A DNA stretch of 64,000 bases from a virus. Positions 1 to 29,825 of the stretch are shown here, piece after piece. Under the pieces are notes generated by a model. It made no database searches. It was not told where the DNA came from and worked only from the letters and a program-made list of their open reading frames with translations. The stretch covers positions 1 through 64,000 of the IMG/VR virus record IMGVR_UViG_3300027762_000294; one strand, 5' to 3'. Position numbers and translations under genes: made by a program. The first letter of the stretch is position 1. Each line of letters opens with the position of its first letter.

Positions 1-333
1 TTATTGTCACCTTTAGAGAACGAGGCGTTCAACCAATATTTGTTACTTTTGCACTGAAAATAAAATTTTAATCAATTCTCATCGCTATTTTTTAATCAAT
101 TCCCATTGGGAACGGTAAAGATAGAGAATACGTCAAATTGAGTATTAGTTACTAATTGAAAAACGGCGTTTTGCATACATTAACTAATACCCAATTGAGC
201 GTATTCATTAATTTTTTACCGTTCCCAATGGGAATTGATTAAAAAATAGCGATGAGAATTGATTAAAATTTTATTTTCAGTGCAAAAGTAACAAATATTG
301 GTTGAACGCCTCGTTCTCTAAAGGTGACAATAA
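1..333. repeat. Terminal fold-back palindrome (putative hairpin genome end)
   Basis: 1-119 is the exact reverse complement of 215-333. The centre (120-214) pairs imperfectly: 126-132/200-206, 142-151/181-190, and 160-164/168-172 around a GGC apex. Confidence 0.9.
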
Positions 334-511
334 TCCGTTTTTCGGGGTCTTTGGGATTTTTACCTGTCATACCGTTCCCTTTTGGGAATGTAATCTGCTA
401 TTCCTATGGAAAAAAACCGGCGGGGATGCCAAAAAGGAATTCATTAAGATAACGTTTGACAAATTAATCCAAAAAAAGGAAAAAAATCTATAACTTTTTT
501 TCAAAAAAACC

Positions 512-540
512 TTGACTTCTTTCCACAACCGAGCTATAAT
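512..540 (+). promoter_or_regulatory. sigma70-type early promoter P1
   Basis: TTGACT-17 nt-TATAAT with an A/T-rich upstream tract; near-identical copies at 994 and 2492. Confidence 0.9.
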
Positions 541-574
541 TACATTATCAAAACTAAACAAAGGGCGGTTTAAC

Positions 575-931
575 ATGAAACAACAACACGATTTGGGCAC
601 ACAACTACTTCTCAGCCATATGTTACTCATCGAATTAAAAGCTATGAGCAACAATTCCACTGAATATGAGGGTTTGGGAGGTGTGACTGAGTTAGTGAAA
701 ATTATGACCAAGCAACCACTGCCGGAGGATTATGAGAAGTTTGTGAAGGTCCATGTAGAGCTACAGCAAATGGATTGCGCCATAGGGTTTTTACACCAGG
801 GCGATCCCTTTTTCTATGATCTGGATACCGGTTATCTAGTGATGATTATTGACAATGATGTGACTATGTCAATAACCTTCACACCTGAAGGCACCCAAGC
901 CGTTATGGAAGCCATGACCATCTCGTATTAA
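575..931 (+). CDS. Early hypothetical protein, paralogue family A
   Basis: ATG at 575, downstream of P1 (the track's TTG start at 512 is the -35 box). C-terminal FFYDLDTGYLVM motif is shared with the ORFs at 2553, 2917 and 5108. Confidence 0.8.
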   Translation: MKQQHDLGTQLLLSHMLLIELKAMSNNSTEYEGLGGVTELVKIMTKQPLPEDYEKFVKVHVELQQMDCAIGFLHQGDPFFYDLDTGYLVMIIDNDVTMSITFTPEGTQAVMEAMTISY

Positions 932-993
932 CCTTTAACTGTGCCCTGTAAGGGGCACAATCACTGACCCCTCCAAAAAAAAGAAAAAAAACC

Positions 994-1022
994 TTGACTT
1001 CTGTCCACAACCGAGCTATAAT
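994..1022 (+). promoter_or_regulatory. sigma70-type early promoter P2
   Basis: TTGACT-17 nt-TATAAT; same spacer and leader family as P1. Confidence 0.9.
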
Positions 1023-1055
1023 TACATCATCAAAACTAAACAAAGGAAAAGTTGT

Positions 1056-1802
1056 ATGGCAATTAAGGTGTTTGAAATCTCACAACGGCGATTAAAAATC
1101 GCACTAGATCAGTATACGAAGGGAAGTAAATTACTGATCCAAGTTACTAGCAAGAATGTGTCGTTAATGGTTGACAAATACGGGATTTGTTTTGAGTATA
1201 CCGTGCCCTCTTATTATGAAGGTGAAGGTTTTTGGTTAGCGGTCTCCCAAGATACTGTTAAGCGGTTAAAATCCGAAGTTGGTAAAAACAACAAACTTGT
1301 CAAATGTTATTATGACGCTCATCCTGCCAACTCGTTGAGTTTCGTATTGTATAACGCAACGGTTGGCGTAAAAGAAACATCGATCTCAAGTCAAGCCCCA
1401 TATGACACTGAGAGATTTGAACTGTCCACTCCCGGTGCCCCTGTTAAATTGGAGTATGGTTCTCTTTGTAAAGCAGTTGAAAATGTGAAGACAGAGAACG
1501 TAACTGAAAAAACCCCCACAGTGGTTTTGCGGCTTTATCCGGATAAAACAACCCTTGGCAGAATGATTGGTGCAGAAGAAGAGTATCTGATACATGGTGA
1601 TTGTGCTGGTGACAAGTATCCGGGCTTTGTTAGATTGGGTATGCCAAACGCCCCCATCTACTCTATCCATCTTGAGCTTTCTACCCTAACTACCATACTC
1701 AAGGCTATGCAACCACTATGTCTAGTGTTTGATAATAATGTGCGGTCTAACAAGATCATCATCAACGGTATCGAAGGTTGTACCTGGTACTTACGATATT
1801 AA
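1056..1802 (+). CDS. Early hypothetical protein (possible sliding-clamp-like fold)
   Basis: 248-aa ORF with AAGGA RBS, directly after P2. The hydrophobic pattern resembles clamp domains (weak). Confidence 0.7.
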   Translation: MAIKVFEISQRRLKIALDQYTKGSKLLIQVTSKNVSLMVDKYGICFEYTVPSYYEGEGFWLAVSQDTVKRLKSEVGKNNKLVKCYYDAHPANSLSFVLYNATVGVKETSISSQAPYDTERFELSTPGAPVKLEYGSLCKAVENVKTENVTEKTPTVVLRLYPDKTTLGRMIGAEEEYLIHGDCAGDKYPGFVRLGMPNAPIYSIHLELSTLTTILKAMQPLCLVFDNNVRSNKIIINGIEGCTWYLRY

Positions 1803-1857
1803 CATCACGCGCCCTGCAAGGGGCGCTTTATCAACCCAAAGAAAGAGGAATTGATGT

Positions 1858-2421
1858 ATGTCTAACACTTTATTTTATACACCCCATACCCTTGACGACA
1901 AAGGAAACCTTTTAGTCCACGCTGTGAAAACAGAATGTGGTTATGTAATTACGAAAAAGAATCCCGCAAACGACTACCCGGGTTATATAGAAGAGGTAGC
2001 TCTAGAATTGCCGTTGCCAGAACAAATACTAACCTCGTTTGATCTTGGGACTCTCAGACTGGGACTTTTAGATTTATGCGTAGTAACGCATTATCCCCGC
2101 TACATAGAGCGGGATCTTCTTACTCAATATCAGAACGAGGTTTTGAACTTTCTGATTCAACAGGTTCAAACCTTAGGTTTAGATTTTAGTGCTCACATGC
2201 CCTTGAGAGAGCTCCAATGTTTTCTATACCGGGTCCTTGTGAAATCGGATATGACAATTGACGAGTTTATTGATCACGTGTTGGGTTATATATCTCAATC
2301 GCAATTACGCATTTCTCTTTTGCCAACTAAAACGTCAGCCGAATCGACAGAAGTTGAAATGTCGCTTTTTGAATATAGACTCAAACTTATGCGAATCATA
2401 CACGCGGTGGTTAATGGTTAG
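1858..2421 (+). CDS. Early hypothetical protein, paralogue family B
   Basis: GAGG RBS; motifs LFYTPHT / PEQILT / YPRYI / MSLFEY shared with the ORFs at 3340 and 4494. Confidence 0.8.
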   Translation: MSNTLFYTPHTLDDKGNLLVHAVKTECGYVITKKNPANDYPGYIEEVALELPLPEQILTSFDLGTLRLGLLDLCVVTHYPRYIERDLLTQYQNEVLNFLIQQVQTLGLDFSAHMPLRELQCFLYRVLVKSDMTIDEFIDHVLGYISQSQLRISLLPTKTSAESTEVEMSLFEYRLKLMRIIHAVVNG

Positions 2422-2491
2422 TCCATAACAGGTGCGCCCTGAAAGGGGCGCTAGAAAGGAAAACACTCTACAACTTTTTTTTCAAAGACCC

Positions 2492-2520
2492 TTGACTTCT
2501 TTCCATAACCTGGCTATAAT
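2492..2520 (+). promoter_or_regulatory. sigma70-type early promoter P3
   Basis: TTGACT-17 nt-TATAAT followed by the same TACATTAT..AAACT.AACAAAGG leader. Confidence 0.9.
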
Positions 2521-2552
2521 TACATTATACAAACTGAACAAAGGAGTAATAA

Positions 2553-2864
2553 ATGAGCAACACGTATGAATTGGCTAGTAAAGCCATGAATGACTTGATC
2601 ACCATGACGTTGATCGACCCCGAAACTTTTGTTAAACATTTAGATGCCGCCGCTGATAATGCCGCTTCTGGCTTGGTGGATTGTGACTTCATATGGGGTT
2701 TAAAAAACGCGGTATTCTTTAAATACCAAGAATGCGTGTATGTACTTGATTTAGATCGTTGGATTTTGTATGCTGTTATTGATGACGGTTTTATCTTGAG
2801 TAAGGAGATCCCAGAAGAGGGAATAACGGGCGTTAATGACGAGTTAGAATTACAGTCCTATTAA
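2553..2864 (+). CDS. Early hypothetical protein, paralogue family A
   Basis: AAGGAG RBS; YVLDLDRWILYAVIDDG motif. Confidence 0.8.
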   Translation: MSNTYELASKAMNDLITMTLIDPETFVKHLDAAADNAASGLVDCDFIWGLKNAVFFKYQECVYVLDLDRWILYAVIDDGFILSKEIPEEGITGVNDELELQSY

Positions 2865-2916
2865 TCAACCGCGCCCTGCAAGGGGCGCTCAATCAATCCA
2901 AAGAAAGGAAAAAAAT

Positions 2917-3285
2917 ATGTTGTATACAGATCACTTGTTACCAGATAATAACCAAGGCTTGCTCAATATGGCGTTCTTTGCCGGGCTGTTGTTAGTAGAT
3001 CAGACGAACAGTGATGAGGGGCGTAATAGTTTTCTTAAAATGATGCATGTCCCCATTTACGGCGGTGGCTATAGTGAGGAAGAGGTAACCCATTGGTCAA
3101 ACCACTTGCATGATGAGTTCCCGTTGTTAGACCGCGGGAATTTCTTAATCACAACAACCGTGAAGTTCCCAACGTTTTACGAACTGGATTCTGGGACGTT
3201 GTTTATGGTTGTCATGCCCGGCGTCATGCTAACATTCTTAATCGACCCTGAACCAGCCAAGTTAATTCGTGATAGCCTCAAATAA
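2917..3285 (+). CDS. Early hypothetical protein, paralogue family A
   Basis: AAGGA RBS; TFYELDSGTLFM motif. Confidence 0.8.
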   Translation: MLYTDHLLPDNNQGLLNMAFFAGLLLVDQTNSDEGRNSFLKMMHVPIYGGGYSEEEVTHWSNHLHDEFPLLDRGNFLITTTVKFPTFYELDSGTLFMVVMPGVMLTFLIDPEPAKLIRDSLK

Positions 3286-3339
3286 TCAACCGCGCCCTGC
3301 AAGGGGCGCTCAATCAATCCAAAGAAAGGAGATAAATGT

Positions 3340-4008
3340 ATGAGCGACAATCGTTATTGGTATAGACCCAACACTATATATGATAATGAAGGAGAAACTT
3401 ACCGGTTGTTATTCAGTGAATTTCATTCAGGTGATTATTATACCACTACAATGTTGAACAAAAACGGTATTACTGGCAAATTTAGCGATCATTCGTTTAC
3501 AACAGTACCCTTTGAAAACATCTTGTACCCTGAACATGTATTGACCCCGTATGAGCTTAGTGCCTTAGCAACTGATGATGATTTATGGCTTTCCCCTTAC
3601 CCAGGATACCTACAACCGAGAGATGTTAATCCTGAATATATGTACTTACTGTTTGACCTTACAAGAATACTTTCTGACTCAACAATAGAATTGCCTATCA
3701 ATGATGTTGACCGTCTGTTGAAGTTTTTACAAACCACTTCCCCGTTTCGTGATAACTTAGGGGTGCATAATTTTGTTATAGAATTGTTGTTTAACCAACT
3801 ACGCAACACTAAGATTGAAAGTTATCGTACTGACTTCCCATCTAATGTATGGGCAACGACGAACACTGGTAGTATGTCACTGTTTGATTACATCTTAGTT
3901 TTGATGAATGCCTTACGCCCACGGCTTTATGGGTTATCAACAATTAGCGAACGCCCCAAAGAACGCCATATTGAGCCTTTAAACAAACAGCGTGATTTCA
4001 AACGTTAA
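3340..4008 (+). CDS. Early hypothetical protein, paralogue family B
   Basis: AAGGAG RBS; YWYRPNT / PEHVLT / YPGYL / MSLFDY. Confidence 0.8.
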   Translation: MSDNRYWYRPNTIYDNEGETYRLLFSEFHSGDYYTTTMLNKNGITGKFSDHSFTTVPFENILYPEHVLTPYELSALATDDDLWLSPYPGYLQPRDVNPEYMYLLFDLTRILSDSTIELPINDVDRLLKFLQTTSPFRDNLGVHNFVIELLFNQLRNTKIESYRTDFPSNVWATTNTGSMSLFDYILVLMNALRPRLYGLSTISERPKERHIEPLNKQRDFKR

Positions 4009-4050
4009 TCAACCGCGCCCTGAAAGGGGCGCAAAGAAAGGAGAGAATAA

Positions 4051-4413
4051 ATGTCATTACCTGAAGTAAATCCTATTATGGTATATGGACTTCGTACTTT
4101 ATTGCACAATTTTCCTAATTGTGTTTCAGGGGTGGATACATCAACACCTGATTATTTTGAAAAAGCCTTGTCTGTAATTGATGAAAACAACAAACAGTTT
4201 GTTAATGGGAGTTGGTATATTTCGATAGGAGGTATTTTAGACCTTATTTATAAATTGGGTCATAGTGGTCTCGTAGATTTTTTAAAAGACAAAGGTATCC
4301 ACCCGTATGGCAACCCACGGTTTAAGATGGAGTTGGTCTTTAATACATTAACATTAACTGCGCCCTGCAATCCAATAAAGAGAGGGAATATGATTGAAGA
4401 AGACCGTAAATGA
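4051..4413 (+). CDS. Early hypothetical protein
   Basis: AAGGAG RBS; the 3' end reads through a collapsed hairpin/RBS unit. Confidence 0.7.
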   Translation: MSLPEVNPIMVYGLRTLLHNFPNCVSGVDTSTPDYFEKALSVIDENNKQFVNGSWYISIGGILDLIYKLGHSGLVDFLKDKGIHPYGNPRFKMELVFNTLTLTAPCNPIKRGNMIEEDRK

Positions 4414-4493
4414 AGTCTTTCTTAAAACAGAAAGAACGTTTGTTTACCCCGGGTCAAAATTTGAAAGACATGCAGAATTGGGAGGCAGAATAA

Positions 4494-5066
4494 ATGGCTC
4501 ATCTTTTATATAAACCGTACACGTTTTTTAAGGGTGTAAGACTTGTTGAGGCGGTTGGTAATATGGTGACTGCAATTCTAGGAACGGGATGCAAGGTCAA
4601 GTTTTATTGCCCAGTCATACCATGCTCGAATTCCTTCATGAATATTGGAGAGGTCATGGCATTACGTGATTTCACCCGTGATTTAGAGTCAGAGGTTTAT
4701 CCTGATTATATGTGTTATTTTCCATTAGCACATAAGTACCATTTTTTAGAGGTCGGTATAAAAAGAATCATGAGTGATCCCCTGCAGTATCCTATAGAAT
4801 TAAGTGAGTTACTGTGTTTTGAGGACATACTGTTCAGACTTATTTATGATGGGGGTGATACTCCTGATGAATTGGCTGGGCGGATTCTCAGTGAACTCGA
4901 GGGTAACATCATAATGGATTATCTTACTGATGATTTTGTGCCCATACCCATCAACACTTCTGTGTTCAACATGTTGTCGTCTATGATACAAGTCACATAC
5001 CCACGGGCAAACCCGCGGTATAAGAATCGTGCTCTAAATGGGGCATGGGACATAGGACAGAAGTAA
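4494..5066 (+). CDS. Early hypothetical protein, paralogue family B
   Basis: GGAGG RBS; LLYKPYT / YPDYM / TSVFNM. Confidence 0.75.
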   Translation: MAHLLYKPYTFFKGVRLVEAVGNMVTAILGTGCKVKFYCPVIPCSNSFMNIGEVMALRDFTRDLESEVYPDYMCYFPLAHKYHFLEVGIKRIMSDPLQYPIELSELLCFEDILFRLIYDGGDTPDELAGRILSELEGNIIMDYLTDDFVPIPINTSVFNMLSSMIQVTYPRANPRYKNRALNGAWDIGQK

Positions 5067-5107
5067 AATCAACCGCGCCCTGAAAGGGGCGCTTTATTAA
5101 TTCAAGA

Positions 5108-5458
5108 ATGAGGAAAGAAGTTATGTGCTTATCTGTTGCAAAAGAATTACGGTTGTTGATGGTCACTAAGTTTACATTACATGAAGCGGCTGGCATTATC
5201 CTAAACAATCGAGTTGAGTATGACGAGTCTTACTCGTGGCTCTTGACTGAATGCTCGCCCCGTAAGAACTGCATTCTGTTTGGGTATAAAACTTGCCTAT
5301 TCAAATTTGATCTGATGGATGGCTGCTTGATTTTTGAAGGGGATGAACCCGGGTCCACTATGCAGTTATATCTGGACTCAGACCCTCAGATACACCAGCA
5401 GTATCTAGATAGATTTATCCCTTATTTAACCTGGCTTCCTTGGCTACGCGATCTATAA
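5108..5458 (+). CDS. Early hypothetical protein, probable family A
   Basis: LFKFDLMDGCLIF motif; last gene before the terminator. Confidence 0.7.
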   Translation: MRKEVMCLSVAKELRLLMVTKFTLHEAAGIILNNRVEYDESYSWLLTECSPRKNCILFGYKTCLFKFDLMDGCLIFEGDEPGSTMQLYLDSDPQIHQQYLDRFIPYLTWLPWLRDL

Positions 5459-5485
5459 CGCTGTAAAGTAAAGTAACCTAACCAC

Positions 5486-5517
5486 AACCCGGCAAGTGTT
5501 TACGCCGGGTTTTTTTT
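5486..5517 (+). terminator. Rho-independent terminator closing the early array
   Basis: AACCCGGC-loop-GCCGGGTT with a T run. Confidence 0.85.
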
Positions 5518-5587
5518 GCCTGGCTATATGGCATGGGGTATATACGATCGTTCAACCTTGGGGCTCCTAGGGCAATCCAAAGGGAAG

Positions 5588-6215
5588 GAAAGGATCTTCT
5601 TTACCGGGCTAAGTTCAATTACATCTTGTAAGTGTATACTTGTGTTTAGAATTTACCGCCATATAGAGTATACATACAAGTTTATTATGAAAATTATTCC
5701 TATCAATCAAGGGCTTACGTGATTTCAGATCACTTAGACTAAATTTTCCTATTATCTCTCTTCTTCAAATTTAAAACTTCTTAAGTTATTGATTATTCAC
5801 ACTTATCTCTCTCAATCTTTTTCGACACTTTGACAGTTTCTTATGACGTATTAAATACCATCCCCTACCCTATACTACGTTAAAGCAATTCAAGGAAATG
5901 AAAGGATCTTCTTTACCGGGCTAAGTTCAATTACATCTTGTAAGTGTATACTTGTGTTTAGAATTTACCGCCATATAGAGTATACATACAAGTTTATTAT
6001 GAAAATTATTCCTATCAATCAAGGGCTTACGTGATTTCAGATCACTTAGACTAAATTTTCCTATTATCTCTCTTCTTCAAATTTAAAACTTCTTAAGTTA
6101 TTGATTATTCACACTTATCTCTCTCAATCTTTTTCGACACTTTGACAGTTTCTTATGACGTATTAAATACCATCCCCTACCCTATACTACGTTAAAGCAA
6201 TTCAAGGAAATGAAA
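5588..6215. repeat. Perfect 312-bp tandem duplication (non-coding)
   Basis: 5588-5899 is repeated at 5900-6211, with GAAA microhomology at the junctions. Confidence 0.9.
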
Positions 6216-6649
6216 TAAGATGTTACTACCCTTAAATATATATATATTTTAAATCTTAAACTTTTTTAAAAAATATAATATAAGTGATCTTAAACTATGT
6301 AAGCTATTAATATATAAGAAGAATTTTTATAATAAATGGGTATTATACGTCGTATGAAAGATACTTCAATGTAGTAAAATATGGCGGGGTTTGACGTGTT
6401 TCAAAGTAAACTTCCAATGTACCTTAAACTGCGCCGTTGACGCGATCTTAAGTTTTCCTAAATAAACAAGCCACTTTCCTCTATAACTTGAATACCCACA
6501 CTAATAATAAATGTTAATCTTTTTTGACCCTTTGGAAGTGGGGTTATTGCTGGCGATATATTGGGGTTTTGGTTACGTTTTTCCCCTGTTTGTGAAGATT
6601 CATCTTCCAATGTCTAAAAAAGTCTGTATCGTTATAAATCAATAACTTA
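5705..6649. promoter_or_regulatory. Cluster of IHF-consensus sites (WATCAANNNNTTR)
   Basis: Exact matches at 5705-5717(+), 5782-5794(-), 6017-6029(+), 6094-6106(-) and 6637-6649(+); one-mismatch site at 6300-6312(-). Confidence 0.6.
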
Positions 6650-6713
6650 AGCGCGGTCAAAAGTGATACTTTGATTGATGTTTTAGTTACGTTTTTCCCT
6701 GTTTGTGAAGATT
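6572..6713. repeat. 28/29-bp direct repeat GTTACGTTTTTCCC(C)TGTTTGTGAAGATT x2
   Basis: Copies at 6572-6600 and 6686-6713, flanking the IHF-like site at 6637. Confidence 0.85.
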
Positions 6714-6993
6714 ATCTTTGGCTGCGCTTCTGCCCTAATCAACCTTTCTTCTTTTATTGGATTGATTTTGCCCTACAACGTCCTAATCGCCCCACCCTTA
6801 AACGATTACATCCCTAGGCATAATGATCCGGCTTAACTGAGATCTCTTTACCACGGGGCTATTACACCCCTTCTTTATGATTTGAGGGGGCGTGGGCATT
6901 TTTAGAATTTTTTTGATACAGGACTAAGGCAGGCGTATTCACGCATTTGAAGGAGGGGGGGGGTGTAGTATCGTTCCCATCGCTCGTTTGGAG

Positions 6994-7078
6994 GGTAAGT
7001 CGCCCTCATTCCAATTCCCACTACGTAGTAGGAGGTTAACATTACGATAGTGGTAAGTCGCCCTCATTCCAATTCCCA
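6994..7078. repeat. 27-bp direct repeat GGTAAGTCGCCCTCATTCCAATTCCCA x2
   Basis: Copies at 6994-7020 and 7052-7078, 31 nt apart. Confidence 0.85.
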
Positions 7079-7235
7079 TTCCATAATGAAATTGCCCTAC
7101 GAAAGTACCGTTGGTCGGACCTTTGGCTACACTCAGGGGAATACCGCTGGTATTCTAAAGGGGAGTGGTTTATACTATTATTAATGAGGGGAAGAAAACA
7201 TAAACTAACATTTACTTAAACAGGAGACATAAAGC

Positions 7236-7583
7236 ATGATTACTGCATACAAACGCGCTTGGGTCAAAGATATGACCAAAATGATTAAAGAGGTCTTGGA
7301 AAGCCTAGACCCAAATAAGTTACCCTTGACAGGGTATGATGCCGAGGTGCATATTGATGTTCTCAAGTTAGTTGAGACTTTACGTGGCATTGAACCGTTG
7401 TTACCAGCGTTAGAGTCAAAACACCTCATCCGACGCCATGCAAAGAACATTGTAGCTGCATTGAATGTTTGTTTTGATGAGGATGTTGATGTGGAAACCA
7501 GATTGCTTCACGCAAGTTTAGTTTACGCGTTATTGAAGTTAATTCCCGTGTCTGGCTCTGAGGATACCGACGAGTCAACTTAA
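7236..7583 (+). CDS. Hypothetical protein
   Basis: 115-aa ORF, AGGAG RBS, followed by a terminator. Confidence 0.75.
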   Translation: MITAYKRAWVKDMTKMIKEVLESLDPNKLPLTGYDAEVHIDVLKLVETLRGIEPLLPALESKHLIRRHAKNIVAALNVCFDEDVDVETRLLHASLVYALLKLIPVSGSEDTDEST

Positions 7584-7590
7584 CAATAAT

Positions 7591-7616
7591 GAAAAAGGGG
7601 CACCGCCCCTTTTTTC
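7591..7616 (+). terminator. Rho-independent (possibly bidirectional) terminator
   Basis: GAAAAAGGGGC-ACC-GCCCCTTTTTTC. Confidence 0.75.
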
Positions 7617-10296: not shown

Positions 10297-12300
10297 ATGA
10301 AAAGAGTATTATATAACCCCACGAAATTACATCACGCAATTAACGCGTTGCTAGAGTCTGTCAACTTACTCCATTTAGGCGATTCTTGGTTTAACCAAGT
10401 GGATTCTAGAATACAGCTCACAGAGGGGTCCATTACTTCCCGTCCCTTTATTGAAATGATGATTGAGGAAGTTTTGCCGCCTAGTTTATCGACTCGCTAT
10501 TTTGTATATAAACAAAATCGTGATTTTTTGAAAGGTTTCCAAACTTTACAAGAGATTGCTACGTTTTTCGAGATAGAACTTGACCCCGATGTAGATGCCT
10601 CAACTAAGGTGTTTCCTAAACACAAAGATTTGATGATTTTCCTACAAAGCTCGTCTCATATAGAGGGGTTATACTTTATGCGAACCTTGCTCAAATATGC
10701 AGAAATAAACAATCTTTCTTTGCATAATTACAAAGAATGGACTACTGTAGATCATCATCTCTTAAGTATCTTTTCTTTTGAAGGTTTGGAGTTGCTTCAT
10801 AGACGATATTTAATAACCCACGCTGATTATAGTTTAGAGACTGTTATTGAATTTTTAACAAGGATTTACGGGACTGTAGATGAAAATTTTAAATTCACGC
10901 ATATATTTTCAACACCCATCATGAGAAACAACGGGCATTTAGGACCTGAATATACAGCAGCCTGTGCAATGATTGAGGTCGGGGATTCTATGGTTGATAT
11001 TTTTGAAGCGGCAAAGGAAGTGGCAAATTGCACAATCCATAACGCAGGAATTGGGTTGAATTTAAGTAGATTGAGACCCAACCAATCTCCCGTGGGTAAC
11101 AAGTTCTTAGGGTTGAAAACCTTAGGTCTCCCACCGGTAATCAATATGTTTAGGTCTGTAGTTAATTTGTTGAATCAGCCTCAACGCGGCTCTGCTGTGA
11201 CTTATTATTTACCTGTTGTACACCCTGATATTGAGGCATATTTAAATTTGAGGTATCGTGTATCTGTAGATGGGCAGTTAGGTCCCAGAGAACATATGTG
11301 TGTGGTAATGACTGGTGATTTTATGGAGGCGGCAAAAGATAAAACAGCATACACATTAAGATGGTCAGACGATTACCTGAATCATAAAAATTACGTAGGG
11401 GGCAATTTCTATGGGCGCATGTCAGCGGATGATGTTTTATCAAAAATAGCAACGTTGATTTTAAGTACAGGAGAACCGTTTATTTTATTCAGGGATAATG
11501 CGAATGATTTCGTTCCTAATAAAGTCACAACTAACCCGATCAACTTTGGGAATTTGTGCACAGAATTTTTCGTTCCTCATTCCAGTCACAAGCCCGGGAA
11601 ACCGGACCCAACATCGTTTTGTTTTTTAGGCTCCATTGTATTACCTAGTATGATGACCGCTCAAGGATATATTGATTTTAATTTGTTAGAGGAGACGATT
11701 AAGAAAACTTTTTCAAAACTGAAAACGTTGTCGATTAATTTTTCGAGACAGACCAACACCCTTTATCCCGTCGGCGTTGGTTTATGTGGGTTTTGGGACG
11801 CTTATTTTGTGTCAAATGAAATGTACACTCGCAGCACATTTACTATCGCTGTATTTGAGTTTATTCACCGCGTACTTCGTGATAATTATCCAGATCATTT
11901 CTTCAATTTCATGGTTGCCCCAACGTCGTCAGCTTCTCGCATCGCAAATGTATTGCCAGGAATAGATCCCCCTTGGGGGGTTGTGGAGGAAACTGTCACA
12001 AACGACGGTCGCTTCACAAAGCCTAACCCATTAAGTAAGTCCGAAAAGTTTTTTACAGTTGATGAGTTGAGTTTAGAAGAGCAAATTGCGTTAATGGCTA
12101 TTCGAGAGCGATATGTGAACGGGGCAAGCAATACTCTTTATTTGAAAACTGAAGACCAAACAGTAGAGAGAGTCAAGTGGGCAATTATGGAGTGTTGGCT
12201 AAAGGGAATTAAGAGTTTATACTATTGGCGATTGAAAACCGTTGTTGATGAGGATTTGTTTGACGACCCTTTATGTACCGGCGGGGCTTGTGAGGTCTAA
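10297..12300 (+). CDS. nrdA: Ribonucleotide reductase class I alpha subunit
   Basis: STPI, AAC, GIG..LS.LRP, HPDI, GEP, NLCTE, CFLGSI, APT.S.S, SLYY and a C-terminal CTGGAC. Confidence 0.92.
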   Translation: MKRVLYNPTKLHHAINALLESVNLLHLGDSWFNQVDSRIQLTEGSITSRPFIEMMIEEVLPPSLSTRYFVYKQNRDFLKGFQTLQEIATFFEIELDPDVDASTKVFPKHKDLMIFLQSSSHIEGLYFMRTLLKYAEINNLSLHNYKEWTTVDHHLLSIFSFEGLELLHRRYLITHADYSLETVIEFLTRIYGTVDENFKFTHIFSTPIMRNNGHLGPEYTAACAMIEVGDSMVDIFEAAKEVANCTIHNAGIGLNLSRLRPNQSPVGNKFLGLKTLGLPPVINMFRSVVNLLNQPQRGSAVTYYLPVVHPDIEAYLNLRYRVSVDGQLGPREHMCVVMTGDFMEAAKDKTAYTLRWSDDYLNHKNYVGGNFYGRMSADDVLSKIATLILSTGEPFILFRDNANDFVPNKVTTNPINFGNLCTEFFVPHSSHKPGKPDPTSFCFLGSIVLPSMMTAQGYIDFNLLEETIKKTFSKLKTLSINFSRQTNTLYPVGVGLCGFWDAYFVSNEMYTRSTFTIAVFEFIHRVLRDNYPDHFFNFMVAPTSSASRIANVLPGIDPPWGVVEETVTNDGRFTKPNPLSKSEKFFTVDELSLEEQIALMAIRERYVNGASNTLYLKTEDQTVERVKWAIMECWLKGIKSLYYWRLKTVVDEDLFDDPLCTGGACEV

Positions 12301-17341: not shown

Positions 17342-17384
17342 GCACTAACAACCTGCCCCGCCTAAGGGGCAGGAGAAAAGGACC

Positions 17385-18480: not shown

Positions 18481-18519
18481 ACCCTTCAACTGCCGGCTTA
18501 AGCCGGCAGGAGGTAAAAT

Positions 18520-28212: not shown

Positions 28213-29097
28213 GTGATTAATGTGAGTATAATCGAGTTTTTTAGATCCGAGGGGCTACCCACTAAAAATGGGTGTGTTAAATGGACGTCATTACATCAAT
28301 ACTTCGGATTTGCATCAAAGAAGGCAGCGAACAAACCCCACGTGGCAGACATACCATCCCGGTATGGAATTAACCGAGAAAACGTCATTACCTTCTCGAA
28401 TGACAAAGGGCATTGGATAACTGAGCACGGGATCGCCGAACTTTGTTATAGGTCAAGAAACAAAACGGCAGTTTTACTTTGGGAAAACTATTTCGACAAA
28501 GGAAACAAAAAGTTAAATTTAGCTTTTGAGGAATTGTGTAATGCAGGGGTTAACACTCAAGGTCATTTGTTGAGGGCATTAGACGTGCAATCATTCTTTA
28601 GGATTCGCAATAATCCCACTTACGATTTGACTCAATTAGGAATACCCTACGTTTTGGTTAAAGATGGGATACACCCTAACAATTTACCTGCCACTTATTT
28701 TGCCTTGGATTATTTGCCCAGATATTTGGGAGCGCGGCGTAACAAGTTAGTGTATGACTTTGTCCAAAACTACGAGTTGTCGACTACAATAATGCCTATT
28801 GAAGTTGCTATTATATCTGAGTTAGAACGGGAGTTTCCTGATCTATGCTTTCAAAGGCAATACCGGATTGGTAAGTATCGGGTAGACGCTGTAATTTTAC
28901 AGGAGTCTATTCCAGTTATTGCTATCGAAATTGATGAATATCAACATAAGCGAACGAGAAGCAGTGAGTATGATAAATTGCGTGAAAATTACATCATCAC
29001 GGCATATCCGGATCTGGTTATTTTGAGAATAGACACAACTGCCAAAGAGTTCTCTTTGGCACCGTACTTCAACATCATACAGGAGCTTTGCAAATGA
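28213..29097 (+). CDS. BRO-like DNA-binding protein with a DUF559/Vsr-like endonuclease domain
   Basis: WITEHGIAELCYRSR; QYRIGKYRVD...IAIEIDEYQH...DKLRE. Confidence 0.7.
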   Translation: MINVSIIEFFRSEGLPTKNGCVKWTSLHQYFGFASKKAANKPHVADIPSRYGINRENVITFSNDKGHWITEHGIAELCYRSRNKTAVLLWENYFDKGNKKLNLAFEELCNAGVNTQGHLLRALDVQSFFRIRNNPTYDLTQLGIPYVLVKDGIHPNNLPATYFALDYLPRYLGARRNKLVYDFVQNYELSTTIMPIEVAIISELEREFPDLCFQRQYRIGKYRVDAVILQESIPVIAIEIDEYQHKRTRSSEYDKLRENYIITAYPDLVILRIDTTAKEFSLAPYFNIIQELCK

Positions 29098-29789
29098 CAA
29101 CCCTAACATTTACCCCAGTTTTTCTTCACAAGTTGTTGCATCAACATCGGTACAGTGCTAAAGAGAATGGTGTGTTGTTCAAATTGGAGGACCATGTATT
29201 GCAAGTAGTGTCTACCAATAACCGACTTTTGACAGTTACAAAACTCACCATGCCTGAAATTGACACTACGTTAAACGCAACCATTCATAACCGTGGAGTG
29301 ATGTTTATCAAAGGGTATCTGCGTAAGCTAAAAGGCTTGGTTTCCTTATCGTTTTCTGAGAGTTATGTCGATTTGAAGCAAGGCGAATCTCAAATCGACA
29401 GAAATTATTTGGTCGGGGAAACATATCCCGATTATACAGCGGTAATTCAAAAGGAGGTAGGATACCAGATTTGGGTTAGATATTCCTCTTTCAAGGATGC
29501 CGTTCAAAGTCAAGAAAATGAGCTGATTTTGAAAGAGTACCAACACCGTCTTTTGATCAATCAACATTCAATGTCCATTTACGACAGTCGATATGCTGAG
29601 GGTAATGCTGTTAAATTGTCAACGGCACCAATCCCCCTAGACACCGATTTATTAATGGGGGCTGTACTTTCCCTAAATGCTTTGCCCAACAAACATTTGA
29701 TTTTGTCCTTTTATGAGGATAGTATAAACGTAGGGCTTGAATTAGAAGGACGCCCTGAAACTAAGGTTATAATAGCCGCCAACCATTAA
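29088..29789 (+). CDS. DNA polymerase beta-clamp-like protein
   Basis: NGVLF......LQVVSTNNRLL and GETYPDYTAVI correspond to the DnaN VATDGHRL and G.FPDY..VI motifs. Confidence 0.7.
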   Translation: MQMTTLTFTPVFLHKLLHQHRYSAKENGVLFKLEDHVLQVVSTNNRLLTVTKLTMPEIDTTLNATIHNRGVMFIKGYLRKLKGLVSLSFSESYVDLKQGESQIDRNYLVGETYPDYTAVIQKEVGYQIWVRYSSFKDAVQSQENELILKEYQHRLLINQHSMSIYDSRYAEGNAVKLSTAPIPLDTDLLMGAVLSLNALPNKHLILSFYEDSINVGLELEGRPETKVIIAANH

Positions 29790-29793
29790 TTAC

Positions 29794-29825
29794 AAAAAAA
29801 ACCCCCAACTGTATTTGTTGGGGGT
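29794..29825 (-). terminator. Terminator at the convergence of the two transcription blocks
   Basis: A8-CCCCCAAC-loop-GTTGGGGG; the U tract reads on the minus strand. Confidence 0.75.

What the first reader, a model, noticed from the sequence alone, without database searches (positions are those of the whole stretch)
575..5458. Gene-cassette array delimited by a conserved GNRA-tetraloop hairpin
Seen: seven of the nine early genes are followed by GCGCCCU-GNAA-GGGGCGC, then a similar A-rich RBS leader or a promoter. Loop variants GCAA, GAAA and GUAA all keep the GNRA consensus, and the first copy shows a compensatory C-G to U-A change. Most copies lack a U tract, so they are not ordinary terminators. 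Inference: it is a structured RNA signal (processing, stabilisation or a boxB-like antitermination site). It may also act as a homology module for shuffling host-takeover/anti-defence genes, analogous to the promoter stem-loop cassettes of T4-like phages.
Basis: partly seen in the sequence, partly recalled or inferred. Interest (0 to 1): 0.7.

Follow-up and report, generated by a model that had tools for sequence, protein, structure and literature searches.

The report
Hairpin linkers between phage early genes
Seven near-identical small GC-rich hairpins sit just after the stop codons of the early genes of an uncultured freshwater phage. Close relatives carry different genes next to the same hairpin linkers, much like the promoter/stem-loop cassettes known from T4-type phages.

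Summary
GCGCCCT-GNAA-GGGGCGC occurs seven times on the + strand (941, 1809, 2434, 2871, 3292, 4015, 5075; 0.06 expected). Each copy lies 6-12 nt after a stop codon and is followed by a shared A-rich RBS leader or a consensus sigma-70 promoter module. An eighth copy (4359-4371) is a decayed half.

A covariance model finds no other copy in the window, and public collections hold only singletons.

The array lies inside a perfect 7,167-bp inverted terminal repeat, so it occurs twice in the 75.5-kb genome.

Five copies precede promoterless genes and lack U tracts, while the phage's real terminators have them. They are therefore not plain terminators. boxA, an N-like protein and site-specific recombinases were not found.

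Contigs from independent metagenomes show at least four foreign genes abutting the same modules, with breakpoints at module edges.

Best reading: a standard stop-hairpin-RBS linker. Its RNA hairpin probably caps and insulates each cistron (inferred). Its 50-90 nt of identity serves as a recombination joint (seen in contigs).

This is a variant of the T4-type PeSL cassettes. The scan has reported similar GNRA hairpins in other phages. RNA structure evidence is thin: one compensatory pair.

The parts
475..564 (+). Promoter module P1 (AT-rich upstream block, -35 TTGACT at 512-517, -10 TATAAT at 535-540, leader ending AAAGG). No hairpin upstream, but a leader-like AATTAATCCAAAAAAAGGAAAA at about 460-485.
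   Evidence: family D3
575..931 (+). o1, 118 aa, acidic ORFan. Weak paralogue of o5.
941..958 (+). HP1, GTGCCCT-GTAA-GGGGCAC. The variant copy with the compensatory U-A pair. Lies 9 nt after the o1 stop.
957..1046 (+). Promoter module P2 (-35 at 994-999, -10 at 1017-1022).
1056..1802 (+). o2, 248 aa. No sequence family. Predicted fold resembles a sliding clamp (lead only).
1800..1854 (+). Linker module with HP2 (hairpin 1809-1826, loop GCAA, followed by UUUAUCAACCCAAAGAAAGAGGA). Relatives read GAAA in the loop (C>A at 1817).
1858..2421 (+). o3, 187 aa ORFan. Paralogue of o6 (about 22-25% identity over the full length).
2434..2451 (+). HP3 (loop GAAA), 12 nt after the o3 stop, followed by AGAAAGGAAAA and then promoter module P3.
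2455..2544 (+). Promoter module P3 (-35 at 2492-2497, -10 at 2515-2520).
2553..2864 (+). o4, 103 aa acidic ORFan.
2862..2916 (+). Linker module with HP4 (hairpin 2871-2888, GCAA). 49 nt identical to the HP5 module (2862-2910 = 3283-3331).
2917..3285 (+). o5, 122 aa acidic ORFan.
3283..3337 (+). Linker module with HP5 (hairpin 3292-3309, GCAA).
3340..4008 (+). o6, 222 aa ORFan. No homologue outside its own 90% cluster.
4006..4050 (+). Linker module with HP6 (hairpin 4015-4032, GAAA). The RBS follows directly (AAAGAAAGGAGAG).
4051..4413 (+). o7, 120 aa. Its last ~20 codons read through a decayed linker.
4359..4389 (+). Decayed half copy, GCGCCCTGCAA|TCCAATAAAGAGAGGGAAT. The 3' arm and TCAATCAA are missing. 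Relatives X2 and X3 carry an intact hairpin after o7.
   Evidence: no fold
4494..5066 (+). o8, 190 aa ORFan. Preceded by the scar of a lost cassette (4390-4493), not by a hairpin.
5066..5122 (+). Linker module with HP7 (hairpin 5075-5092, GAAA, followed by UUUAUUAAUU). The only copy that passes the terminator scan.
5123..5458 (+). o9, 111 aa ORFan. Last gene of the array.
5486..5517 (+). Canonical intrinsic terminator closing the array (AACCCGGC...GCCGGGTT followed by T7).

Best explanation
The early region is built from ORF-only cassettes joined by two kinds of standard linker.
- Type L: stop codon, TCAACC, hairpin, (TCAATCAATCC), AAAGAAAGGAG, start codon.
- Type P: hairpin plus a 90-nt consensus sigma-70 promoter module.

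RNA level (inferred). Host RNA polymerase starts at P1, P2 and P3 and reads through the hairpins, because they lack U tracts. In the polycistronic RNA each very stable GNRA-capped 7-bp stem sits 6-12 nt after a stop codon. There it can block 3'-to-5' exonucleases once the message is cut downstream. It can also leave a structured 5' end on the next cistron. And it keeps each A-rich ribosome-binding leader from pairing with neighbouring coding sequence. At most it attenuates transcription weakly.

DNA level (seen in contigs). The 50-90 nt of near-identity between linkers gives homologous recombination a place to swap, delete or insert whole ORFs without disturbing stop, RBS or promoter. This explains the different gene sets in close relatives. 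It also explains why the linkers stay identical while flanking paralogues have drifted to about 25% identity.

Because the array lies in the inverted terminal repeat, any change ends up at both genome ends.
For: Shown:
- Seven copies against 0.06 expected, all on the sense strand. The covariance model scores them 36-46 bits and nothing else above 10 bits.
- The conserved unit runs from the stop codon to the RBS. 49 nt are identical between the HP4 and HP5 modules.
- Six genes (o3, o5-o9) have no promoter of their own and lie behind hairpins. The three consensus promoters are at 512, 994 and 2492.
- Only 1 of 7 hairpins has a terminator-like tail, whereas 5486-5517, 7591-7615 and 29801-29825 have T runs.
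- Other stop-hairpin-RBS junctions without U tracts occur among the middle genes (17352-17373, 18490-18509).
- All copies keep a U.G pair that would be a C.A mismatch on the other strand.
- Among the listed differences in relatives, the only one inside a hairpin is at the free loop position (1817 C>A).

Cassette exchange:
- X2 contig 11 (1112 nt) reads foreign gene, HP3+P3 (2433-2546), 371 foreign nt, HP6 module and the o7 start (4006-4129).
- X3 contig 17 (1523 nt) reads o3, HP3, P3, o4, HP4 (to 2888), then a leader and about 540 nt of a gene that is not o5. o5 lies on another contig that starts at 2916.
- At least four foreign gene ends or starts abut the modules, as loose ends at 2433, 2546, 2863/3284/5059 and 3288/4011. 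One of them is a minor variant in the source sample itself.
- Breakpoints fall at the stop codon, at the first or last hairpin base, or just after the SD.

Paralogues: o3/o6 and o1/o5 are only about 22-30% identical, yet their hairpins are nearly identical (18/18 for o3/o6, 15/18 for o1/o5).

Established knowledge: 3' intercistronic structures block PNPase and RNase II (malE-malF), and 5' hairpins protect after RNase E cleavage (papBA), as reviewed in PMC5927463. [quoted passage not shown]
Against: - No RNA data exist for this phage, so read-through, processing and stabilisation are all inferred.
- Covariation is one compensatory pair, reached by 77 of 500 shuffles. A DNA-level palindrome would show the same pattern.
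- The copies are related by descent or conversion, so their identity is not seven independent observations.
- The decayed copy at 4359 shows that a junction can lose its hairpin without obvious loss of the downstream ORF.
- The PeSL stem-loop tested by Arbiol et al. terminated strongly in a reporter (PMC2839356), so a weak-terminator role cannot be dismissed on sequence alone.
- The exchange evidence comes from short k=31 contigs laid at 85% likeness. Identical hairpins make the 'to' coordinate of some joints ambiguous, some sides are under 30 nt, and several strains may coexist in one sample. Gene order in any one relative is therefore not established.
- No phage recombinase (RecT, ERF) was detected.
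Confidence: 0.55

Rival explanations
1. Leaky intrinsic terminators (attenuators). Each hairpin stops a fraction of polymerases. This would give a graded fall in expression along each transcription unit and insulate P2 and P3 from upstream transcription, as proposed for the stem-loops of PeSLs.
For: - A GC-rich 7-bp stem right after a stop codon is terminator-like.
- HP7 passes the scan and HP2 has UUUAU.
- HP1 and HP3 sit just upstream of promoters in a terminator-promoter arrangement.
- A PeSL stem-loop reduced lacZ expression as much as rrnB T1 (PMC2839356).
Against: - Five of seven copies have no U tract, including the two in front of promoters.
- The phage's clear terminators do have T runs.
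- Efficient termination would silence six promoterless genes.
- The hairpin starts only 6 nt after the stop codon in four copies. From general knowledge, a terminating ribosome would then hinder its folding.
Confidence: 0.2
2. Recognition site for a phage or host RNA-binding protein. This could be a boxB-like site for an N-type antiterminator, or an operator for a translational repressor that shuts off the early genes together.
For: - GCCCUGAAA is shared with lambda nutR boxB (agcccugaaaaagggc, PMC2724277).
- The GNRA loop and its closing U.G are invariant while the N position varies.
- The leader next to HP4 and HP5 carries AATCCAAAGAA, one half of an inverted motif that is enriched before middle and late genes. 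There are 10 + strand matches in 68 kb against roughly 0.5 expected from pattern frequency.
Against: - No boxA near any hairpin. Pattern counts are at chance level (64 against 55 +/- 7).
- No ORF has an arginine-rich stretch in the early region.
- There are seven sites placed after genes, not one behind each promoter.
- There are no terminators inside the units for an antiterminator to overcome.
- A true tetraloop differs from the lambda and P22 pentaloops.
Confidence: 0.1
3. DNA-level element. The 18-bp near-palindrome would be an operator for a dimeric DNA-binding protein. Alternatively it could be a cruciform or single-strand hairpin used in replication of the terminal repeat, or a site for a dedicated recombinase, as attC is for integron integrases.
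For: - GCGCCC-N6-GGGCGC is a good two-fold symmetric site.
- The array lies in an inverted terminal repeat next to a palindromic end.
- The cassette-plus-hairpin layout superficially recalls integrons.
Against: - No tyrosine or serine recombinase is present in the genome.
- The hairpin is far shorter than an attC site and lacks its extrahelical bases.
- The sites do not overlap promoters. P1 has none, and HP1 and HP3 lie 36-41 nt upstream of the -35.
- A symmetric double change in both half-sites (HP1) is what a hairpin needs, not what an operator tolerates best.
- The invariant T...G is a mismatch in DNA.
Confidence: 0.07
4. No function of its own. The hairpin would be a passenger that was duplicated together with genes and is kept identical only by frequent gene conversion between repeats.
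For: - o3/HP3 and o6/HP6 share the same loop and the same hairpin-to-RBS junction, which suggests co-duplication.
- One copy has decayed without obvious harm.
Against: - Variation among copies and among strains is confined to the loop N and one compensatory pair, while the flanks vary freely.
- The placement 6-12 nt after the stop codon is regular.
- Unrelated hairpins occupy the same position at other junctions in this phage and in other phages (L010; earlier scan notes).
Confidence: 0.06

Closest known systems
PeSL (promoter-early stem-loop) cassettes of T4-type phages RB49, phi1, PST and nt-1 (Arbiol et al. 2010, PMC2839356; Comeau et al. 2014, PMC4122927)
   Same: - Repeated intergenic motifs made of stop codon, stable stem-loop, AT-rich block, consensus sigma-70 promoter, SD and start codon.
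- Concentrated among small ORFans expressed early.
- Close relatives differ by insertions, deletions and replacements whose ends lie in the motifs.
- HP1+P2 and HP3+P3 fit this description fully.
   Different: - Five of seven copies here have no promoter. They are stop-hairpin-RBS linkers inside polycistronic units, so they cannot be strong terminators.
- One single hairpin sequence with a GNRA loop is reused, not many different G/C-tract stems.
- The phage is unrelated to T4. It has a PolB of 24% identity or less to any phage and a very large tape-measure-like ORF.
- The array lies in an inverted terminal repeat.
- Mini-circles were not tested.
Intercistronic protective RNA structures of bacterial operons (malE-malF REP hairpins, papBA 5' hairpin; Dar and Sorek 2018, PMC5927463)
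   Same: - A stable stem-loop without a U tract lies between co-transcribed genes.
- It is positioned to cap the 3' end of the upstream cistron or the 5' end of the downstream one after endonucleolytic cleavage.
- Several can act in series in one operon (menBCE).
   Different: - The known cases are individual, unrelated structures, often inside coding sequence.
- Here one sequence is repeated at nearly every junction together with its flanks.
- Function here is inferred only.
lambda/P22 boxB of the nut sites (PMC2724277)
   Same: - A short GC stem with a GNRA-type loop.
- 9 nt (GCCCUGAAA) identical to lambda nutR boxB.
- Located in early transcripts.
   Different: - No boxA and no N-like ARM protein.
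- A tetraloop, not a pentaloop.
- Seven copies after genes, not one per operon near the promoter.
Repeated GNRA-capped hairpins after early genes noted by this scan in other phages (e1-125865 in a T5-like phage; e1-206524)
   Same: - Identical small GC-rich GNRA hairpins just after stop codons of early genes.
- They bracket optional small genes.
- They were judged leaky terminator or mRNA-protecting hairpins of the PeSL kind.
   Different: - Those have 3-4 copies. Here there are seven (fourteen per genome) with a conserved 50-nt linker.
- Here there is direct contig evidence of gene replacement in relatives.
- Those notes are unchecked by me.

Membership tests
PeSL cassettes (T4-type phages) | A sigma-70-like early promoter with an AT-rich upstream block inside the repeated motif | tested here: inconclusive
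   Met for HP1+P2 and HP3+P3 (TTGACT-17-TATAAT, 11 of 12). Not met for HP2, HP4, HP5, HP6 and HP7, which have only an RBS leader.
PeSL cassettes (T4-type phages) | A stable stem-loop in the motif | tested here: met
   A 7-8 bp stem forms in every copy; the 80-nt windows have minimum free energies of about -14 to -21 kcal/mol.
PeSL cassettes (T4-type phages) | Motifs flank ORFans in a plastic region, and close relatives differ by indels or replacements ending in the motifs | tested here: met
   The genes are ORFans. Contigs of X2, X3, X6 and a minor X1 variant show foreign genes joined at module edges. The evidence is contig-level and gene order is not resolved.
PeSL cassettes (T4-type phages) | The stem-loop acts as a transcription terminator or attenuator, and mini-circles form between motifs | not testable with these tools
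   This needs reporter assays and PCR on phage DNA. No RNA run holds the phage.
Rho-independent terminator | A GC-rich hairpin immediately followed by a U tract | tested here: not met
   Only HP7 passes the scan. HP1, HP3, HP4, HP5 and HP6 are followed by AAUCAC, UAGAAA, UCAAUC or AAAGAA.
Rho-independent terminator | Placed at the end of a transcription unit | tested here: not met
   Five copies are followed by promoterless genes. The unit ends at the canonical terminator 5486-5517.
N-utilisation (nut) site, boxA + boxB | boxA (CGCUCUUA / UGCUCUUUA) a few nt upstream of the hairpin | tested here: not met
   No match lies within 30 nt upstream of any hairpin. Window counts are at chance level.
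N-utilisation (nut) site, boxA + boxB | A cognate N-like protein with an arginine-rich motif | tested here: not met
   In a scan of all ORFs of 40 aa or more, the only window with at least 6 Arg in 18 residues is at 12300, outside the early region. The early proteins are mostly acidic.
Integron cassette array (attC + IntI) | A tyrosine recombinase, and 57-141-nt attC hairpins with R/L boxes | tested here: not met
   PF00589 and PF00239 are absent from the genome. The element is an 18-nt perfect hairpin.
Host REP/BIME-type or CRISPR-repeat-derived element | Many copies, or arrays, of the same hairpin in bacterial genomes | tested here: inconclusive
   Scans of viral, metagenome and genome collections gave 19, 119 and 120 stretches. 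Nearly all are singletons, mostly in high-GC genomes, and none is an array.
Any Rfam family | A match to a curated covariance model | tested here: not met
   No meaningful match in 1-7300 at E of 1 or less.

The most novel reading that the evidence does not exclude
The stop-hairpin-RBS linker could be an active, self-propagating unit and not merely a passive stretch of homology. The GNRA hairpin, together with the adjacent AATCCAARGAAA half-site, would be bound by a phage factor. That factor would both time the shut-off of all early cistrons and promote excision and insertion of ORF cassettes, for example as mini-circles. The inverted terminal repeat would then be a dedicated, duplicated 'accessory gene dock', analogous to poxvirus ITRs.
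Probability: 0.1. Interest if true: 0.7.

Novelty: new variant of a known kind. Interest (0 to 1): 0.45.

Why it matters
The finding extends the PeSL idea outside the T4 group. In PeSLs, regulatory punctuation doubles as recombination joints for accessory genes. Here it takes a simpler form, a promoterless stop-hairpin-RBS linker.

That linker is in effect a natural 'standard part' for plugging ORFs into an operon. Such linkers could be used to find the borders of swappable early genes in uncultured phages. Early ORFans are often where host-takeover and counter-defence genes are found, though that function is untested here.

It also offers a compact insulator design for synthetic operons.

The setting adds interest, but it is a separate question. 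The array lies in a 7.2-kb inverted terminal repeat of a very divergent 75-kb phage.

Tried and rejected
**Searches for relatives**
- Near-identity search of 400-5600 against GenBank phages gave no match.
- The search for related loci in IMG/VR with the DNA polymerase, o2 and an o8 homologue gave none.
- The promoter-module pattern in IMG/VR gave none.
- The search for homologous proteins returned only the own clusters for the polymerase and for o6.
- A cross-phage covariance test was therefore impossible.

**Scans with the hairpin 18-mer**
- Viral, metagenome and genome collections gave only singletons.
- Of all fetched loci, only L010 resembles the module beyond the hairpin.

The 11.3-kb and 3.7-kb contigs that carry o4/o5/o8/o9 and o6/o9 homologues could not be read.
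- No RNA holder is listed for this stretch.

**Other negative results**
- Rfam gave nothing.
- Profile-profile comparison did not confirm wider paralogue families. o3/o6 against o8 gave E 0.3, and o1/o5 against o4/o9 gave E 0.56. Only the pairs o3/o6 and o1/o5, and weakly o4/o9, are claimed.
- T7-type RNA polymerase and RegB families were not found, but the controls were silent, so this says little.

**Readings considered and rejected**
- N4-type hairpin promoters: the consensus sigma-70 promoters are present, and the hairpins lie after genes.
- RNase III sites: the stem is too short.
- CRISPR-repeat mimic: no arrays with this core were found, and the spacing equals gene lengths.

Full report

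Yes. The pattern GCGCCCYNNNNRGGGCGC (up to 2 mismatches) occurs seven times in the 64-kb window. All copies are on the + strand, at 941, 1809, 2434, 2871, 3292, 4015 and 5075. Dinucleotide shuffles give a mean of 0.06, and none of 100 reaches seven.

Six copies read GCGCCCT-G[C/A]AA-GGGGCGC. The first reads GTGCCCT-GTAA-GGGGCAC. Its second pair has changed from C-G to U-A on both sides.

Each copy folds as a 7-8 bp stem with a tetraloop, and the 80-nt windows tested have minimum free energies of about -14 to -21 kcal/mol.

A covariance model built from the seven scores them 36-46 bits and nothing else in the window above 10 bits. The family is therefore confined to this region.

An eighth copy at 4359-4371 is broken. 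It reads GCGCCCTGCAA and runs straight into TCCAATAAAG, so the 3' arm and part of the leader are lost. It no longer folds.

**2. Anatomy**

Nine ORFs (o1-o9, 103-248 aa) run rightwards from 575 to 5458.
- Hairpins begin 9, 6, 12, 6, 6, 6 and 8 nt after the stop codons of o1-o6 and o8.
- What is conserved is a module, not the hairpin alone.
- Family D2 runs TAA-TCAACC-hairpin-(TCAATCAATCC)-AAAGAAAGGAG to the next start codon, which lies 18-31 nt after the stem. The HP4 and HP5 modules share 49 identical nt.
- HP1 and HP3 are instead followed by a 90-nt module present three times (475-564, 957-1046, 2455-2544). It holds an A/T-rich block and TTGACT-17-TATAAT, an 11 of 12 match to the sigma-70 consensus.

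The layout is therefore: P1-o1-HP1 | P2-o2-HP2-o3-HP3 | P3-o4-HP4-o5-HP5-o6-HP6-o7-(half copy, scar)-o8-HP7-o9. The canonical terminator at 5486-5517 closes it.

**3. Context**

The record is a 75,468-bp IMG/VR virus contig classed as having inverted terminal repeats.
- The first 7,167 bases are repeated, reverse-complemented and without a single mismatch, at the other end. The genome therefore carries the array twice, each reading inward.
- Independent Logan contigs of two samples (X1, X2) branch at exactly 7167 into the sequence that adjoins the right-hand repeat.
- The rest of the genome encodes ribonucleotide reductase, a thymidylate-synthase-like protein, Dam methylase, a primase-helicase, a very divergent family-B polymerase, TerL, a 7,744-aa ORF and lysis and tail genes.
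- The polymerase and o6 have no homologue outside their own 90% clusters in a 5.8-billion-protein index. This is an isolated lineage.
- The source is a freshwater sediment metagenome.

**4. What the hairpins are not**

*Plain terminators.*
- Only HP7 passes a simple hairpin-plus-T-tract scan. HP2 has UUUAU and five copies have no U tract.
- The phage clearly uses canonical terminators elsewhere (5486-5517, 7591-7615, 29801-29825).
- Six genes (o3, o5-o9) have no promoter of their own and lie behind hairpins. Efficient termination would silence them.

*nut sites.*
- The loop and 9 nt match lambda nutR boxB (PMC2724277).
- However, there is no boxA near any copy and no arginine-rich early protein. 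The sites follow genes and do not sit once behind each promoter.

*Integron-like attC sites.* No tyrosine or serine recombinase is encoded.

*Catalogued RNAs.* Rfam has nothing.

**5. Evidence on the RNA reading**

The case for an RNA-level role is circumstantial.
- All copies are in the sense orientation.
- All keep a U.G pair closing the loop, which would be a C.A mismatch on the other strand.
- Variation among copies is limited to the free N of GNAA and one compensatory pair, while the flanks vary.
- Among the best-supported differences in relatives, the only one inside a hairpin is 1817 C>A, which turns GCAA into GAAA.
- Two unrelated stems occupy the same stop-hairpin-RBS position among the middle genes (17352-17373, 18490-18509). 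The arrangement therefore looks like a house style of this phage.

Against this, covariation amounts to a single event, which 77 of 500 shuffles match. No RNA run holds the phage.

Known biology offers a ready mechanism. Intercistronic stems block PNPase and RNase II after a downstream cut (malE-malF). They also protect the 5' end after RNase E cleavage (papBA). Both are summarised in PMC5927463. I take this as the most likely role, with weak attenuation as a non-exclusive rival.

**6. Evidence on the cassette reading**

That test fails, which favours the idea.

Runs from at least three other studies hold only 17-31% of the sampled words of 400-5600. Laying their contigs gave the following.
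- *X2 contig 11 (1112 nt).* It reads about 500 nt of a foreign gene, then 2433-2546 (HP3 plus P3, ending at the SD). Next come 371 foreign nt, then 4006-4129 (the o6 stop codon, HP6 and the o7 start). In this contig o3 and o4-o6 are replaced.
- *X3 contig 17 (1523 nt).* It reads o3, HP3, P3, o4 and HP4 up to 2888, which is the last base of the stem. A leader and about 540 nt that are not o5 follow. o5 itself sits on a contig that begins at 2916. X6 shows the same joint.
- *Loose ends.* Four different foreign gene ends or starts abut module edges (2433, 2546, 2863/3284/5059, 3288/4011). One of these variants is a minor strain in the source sample.
- *After o7.* X2 and X3 carry an intact hairpin after o7 where the window has the broken one.

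Protein clusters agree. Homologues of o4, o5, o8 and o9 share one 11.3-kb contig, and o6 and o9 share a 3.7-kb contig. Homologues of the other early genes are not listed on either at 90% identity. Several homologues differ from the window's proteins only at their last residues, next to the linker.

The paralogue pairs o3/o6 and o1/o5 have drifted to about 22-30% identity while their linkers stay nearly identical. This requires either selection or continual conversion between linkers.

Caveats:
- The contigs are short (k=31) and were laid at 85% likeness.
- Identical hairpins make some joint coordinates ambiguous.
- A sample may hold several strains, so the full gene order of any one relative is unknown.

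**7. Comparison with known systems**

The closest described system is the PeSL of T4-type phages. It is a repeated motif made of stop codon, stem-loop, AT-rich block, sigma-70 promoter and SD. It flanks ORFans, and recombination between motifs causes replacements and mini-circles (PMC2839356, PMC4122927).

HP1+P2 and HP3+P3 meet that description. The other five copies lack the promoter and work inside polycistronic units, so they are a simpler form.

The phage is unrelated to T4 and the array sits in a terminal inverted repeat.

Earlier notes of this scan describe repeated GNRA hairpins after early genes in a T5-like phage and another phage, with the same comparison. I did not check those notes.

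An unrelated IMG/VR contig (L010) even carries the same 18-mer before an RBS and a small gene. This suggests that such gene-end hairpins arise or travel readily.

**8. Verdict**

- 'Not plain terminators' holds.
- 'Homology modules for shuffling' holds at contig level.
- 'boxB-like' is not supported.
- The RNA function remains inferred.

This is a new variant of a known kind. It is moderately interesting, mainly as a clean natural example of standardised linkers and because of its unusual genomic setting.

Noticed in passing
window 1-7167 and genome 68302-75468: The inverted terminal repeat is perfect over 7,167 bp. Both inner junctions are seen in Logan contigs of X1 and X2. However, the contig depth of the repeat is only about 1.0-1.4 times that of the adjoining unique DNA in X1, X2 and X3, not 2 times. 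Either coverage is biased or not every molecule carries both copies. This is unexplained.
   Followed up: partly
window 1-333: The contig end is itself a palindrome. It has perfect arms at 1-119 and 215-333 around an imperfect AT-rich 95-nt centre. An arm of exactly 119 nt equals a common assembler k-mer size, from memory, so the outer arm may be an assembly read-through of a fold-back or hairpin end.
   Followed up: partly
window 466, 2895, 3316, 12559, 20352, 53163, 57028, 62014 and partners: AATCCARRRA occurs 10 times on the + strand and its complement 7 times in 68 kb, against roughly 0.5 expected per strand. Before middle and late genes it forms inverted pairs (for example 12559/12592, 20352/384, 62014/62053). 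The early leaders after HP4 and HP5, and the region upstream of P1, carry one half. It may be a shared regulator site that links early shut-off to middle/late activation.
   Followed up: partly
window 1056-1802: o2 has no sequence family. Its ESM Atlas model (pTM 0.70) aligns to a bacterial DNA polymerase III beta-clamp cluster at TM 0.74, and feature neighbours include gp45/PCNA-like viral clusters. A second weak clamp-like ORF lies at 29088-29789. An early clamp-like protein in the terminal repeat deserves a fold and a comparison.
   Followed up: no
window 4390-4493: A scar of a lost cassette lies between o7 and o8. It consists of a 7-codon remnant (ATGATTGAAGAAGACCGTAAATGA), read in frame as the tail of o7, then about 80 nt of non-coding sequence and an RBS for o8 with no hairpin.
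   Followed up: partly
window 5580-6191: Two tandem 300-nt copies (99% identical, spacing 312) lie in the non-coding block between the early terminator and the repeat boundary. Their contig depth is about three times that of their neighbours.
   Followed up: no
window 29910-53144 (- strand): A single uninterrupted 7,744-aa ORF.
   Followed up: no
L010:8560-9250 (IMGVR_UViG_3300050136_000042): This unrelated phage contig shares the 18-nt hairpin. It carries several copies of a 29-nt type I-E-like CRISPR repeat (CTGTTCCCCACATGCGTGGGGATGAACCG) with 32-33-nt spacers. They are interleaved with two diverged copies of a small gene.
   Followed up: no
window 17352-17373 and 18490-18509: Two further GC-rich hairpins without U tracts sit between a stop codon and the next RBS in the envelope-remodelling gene block. 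The first is the best non-family hit of the covariance model, at 10 bits.
   Followed up: partly
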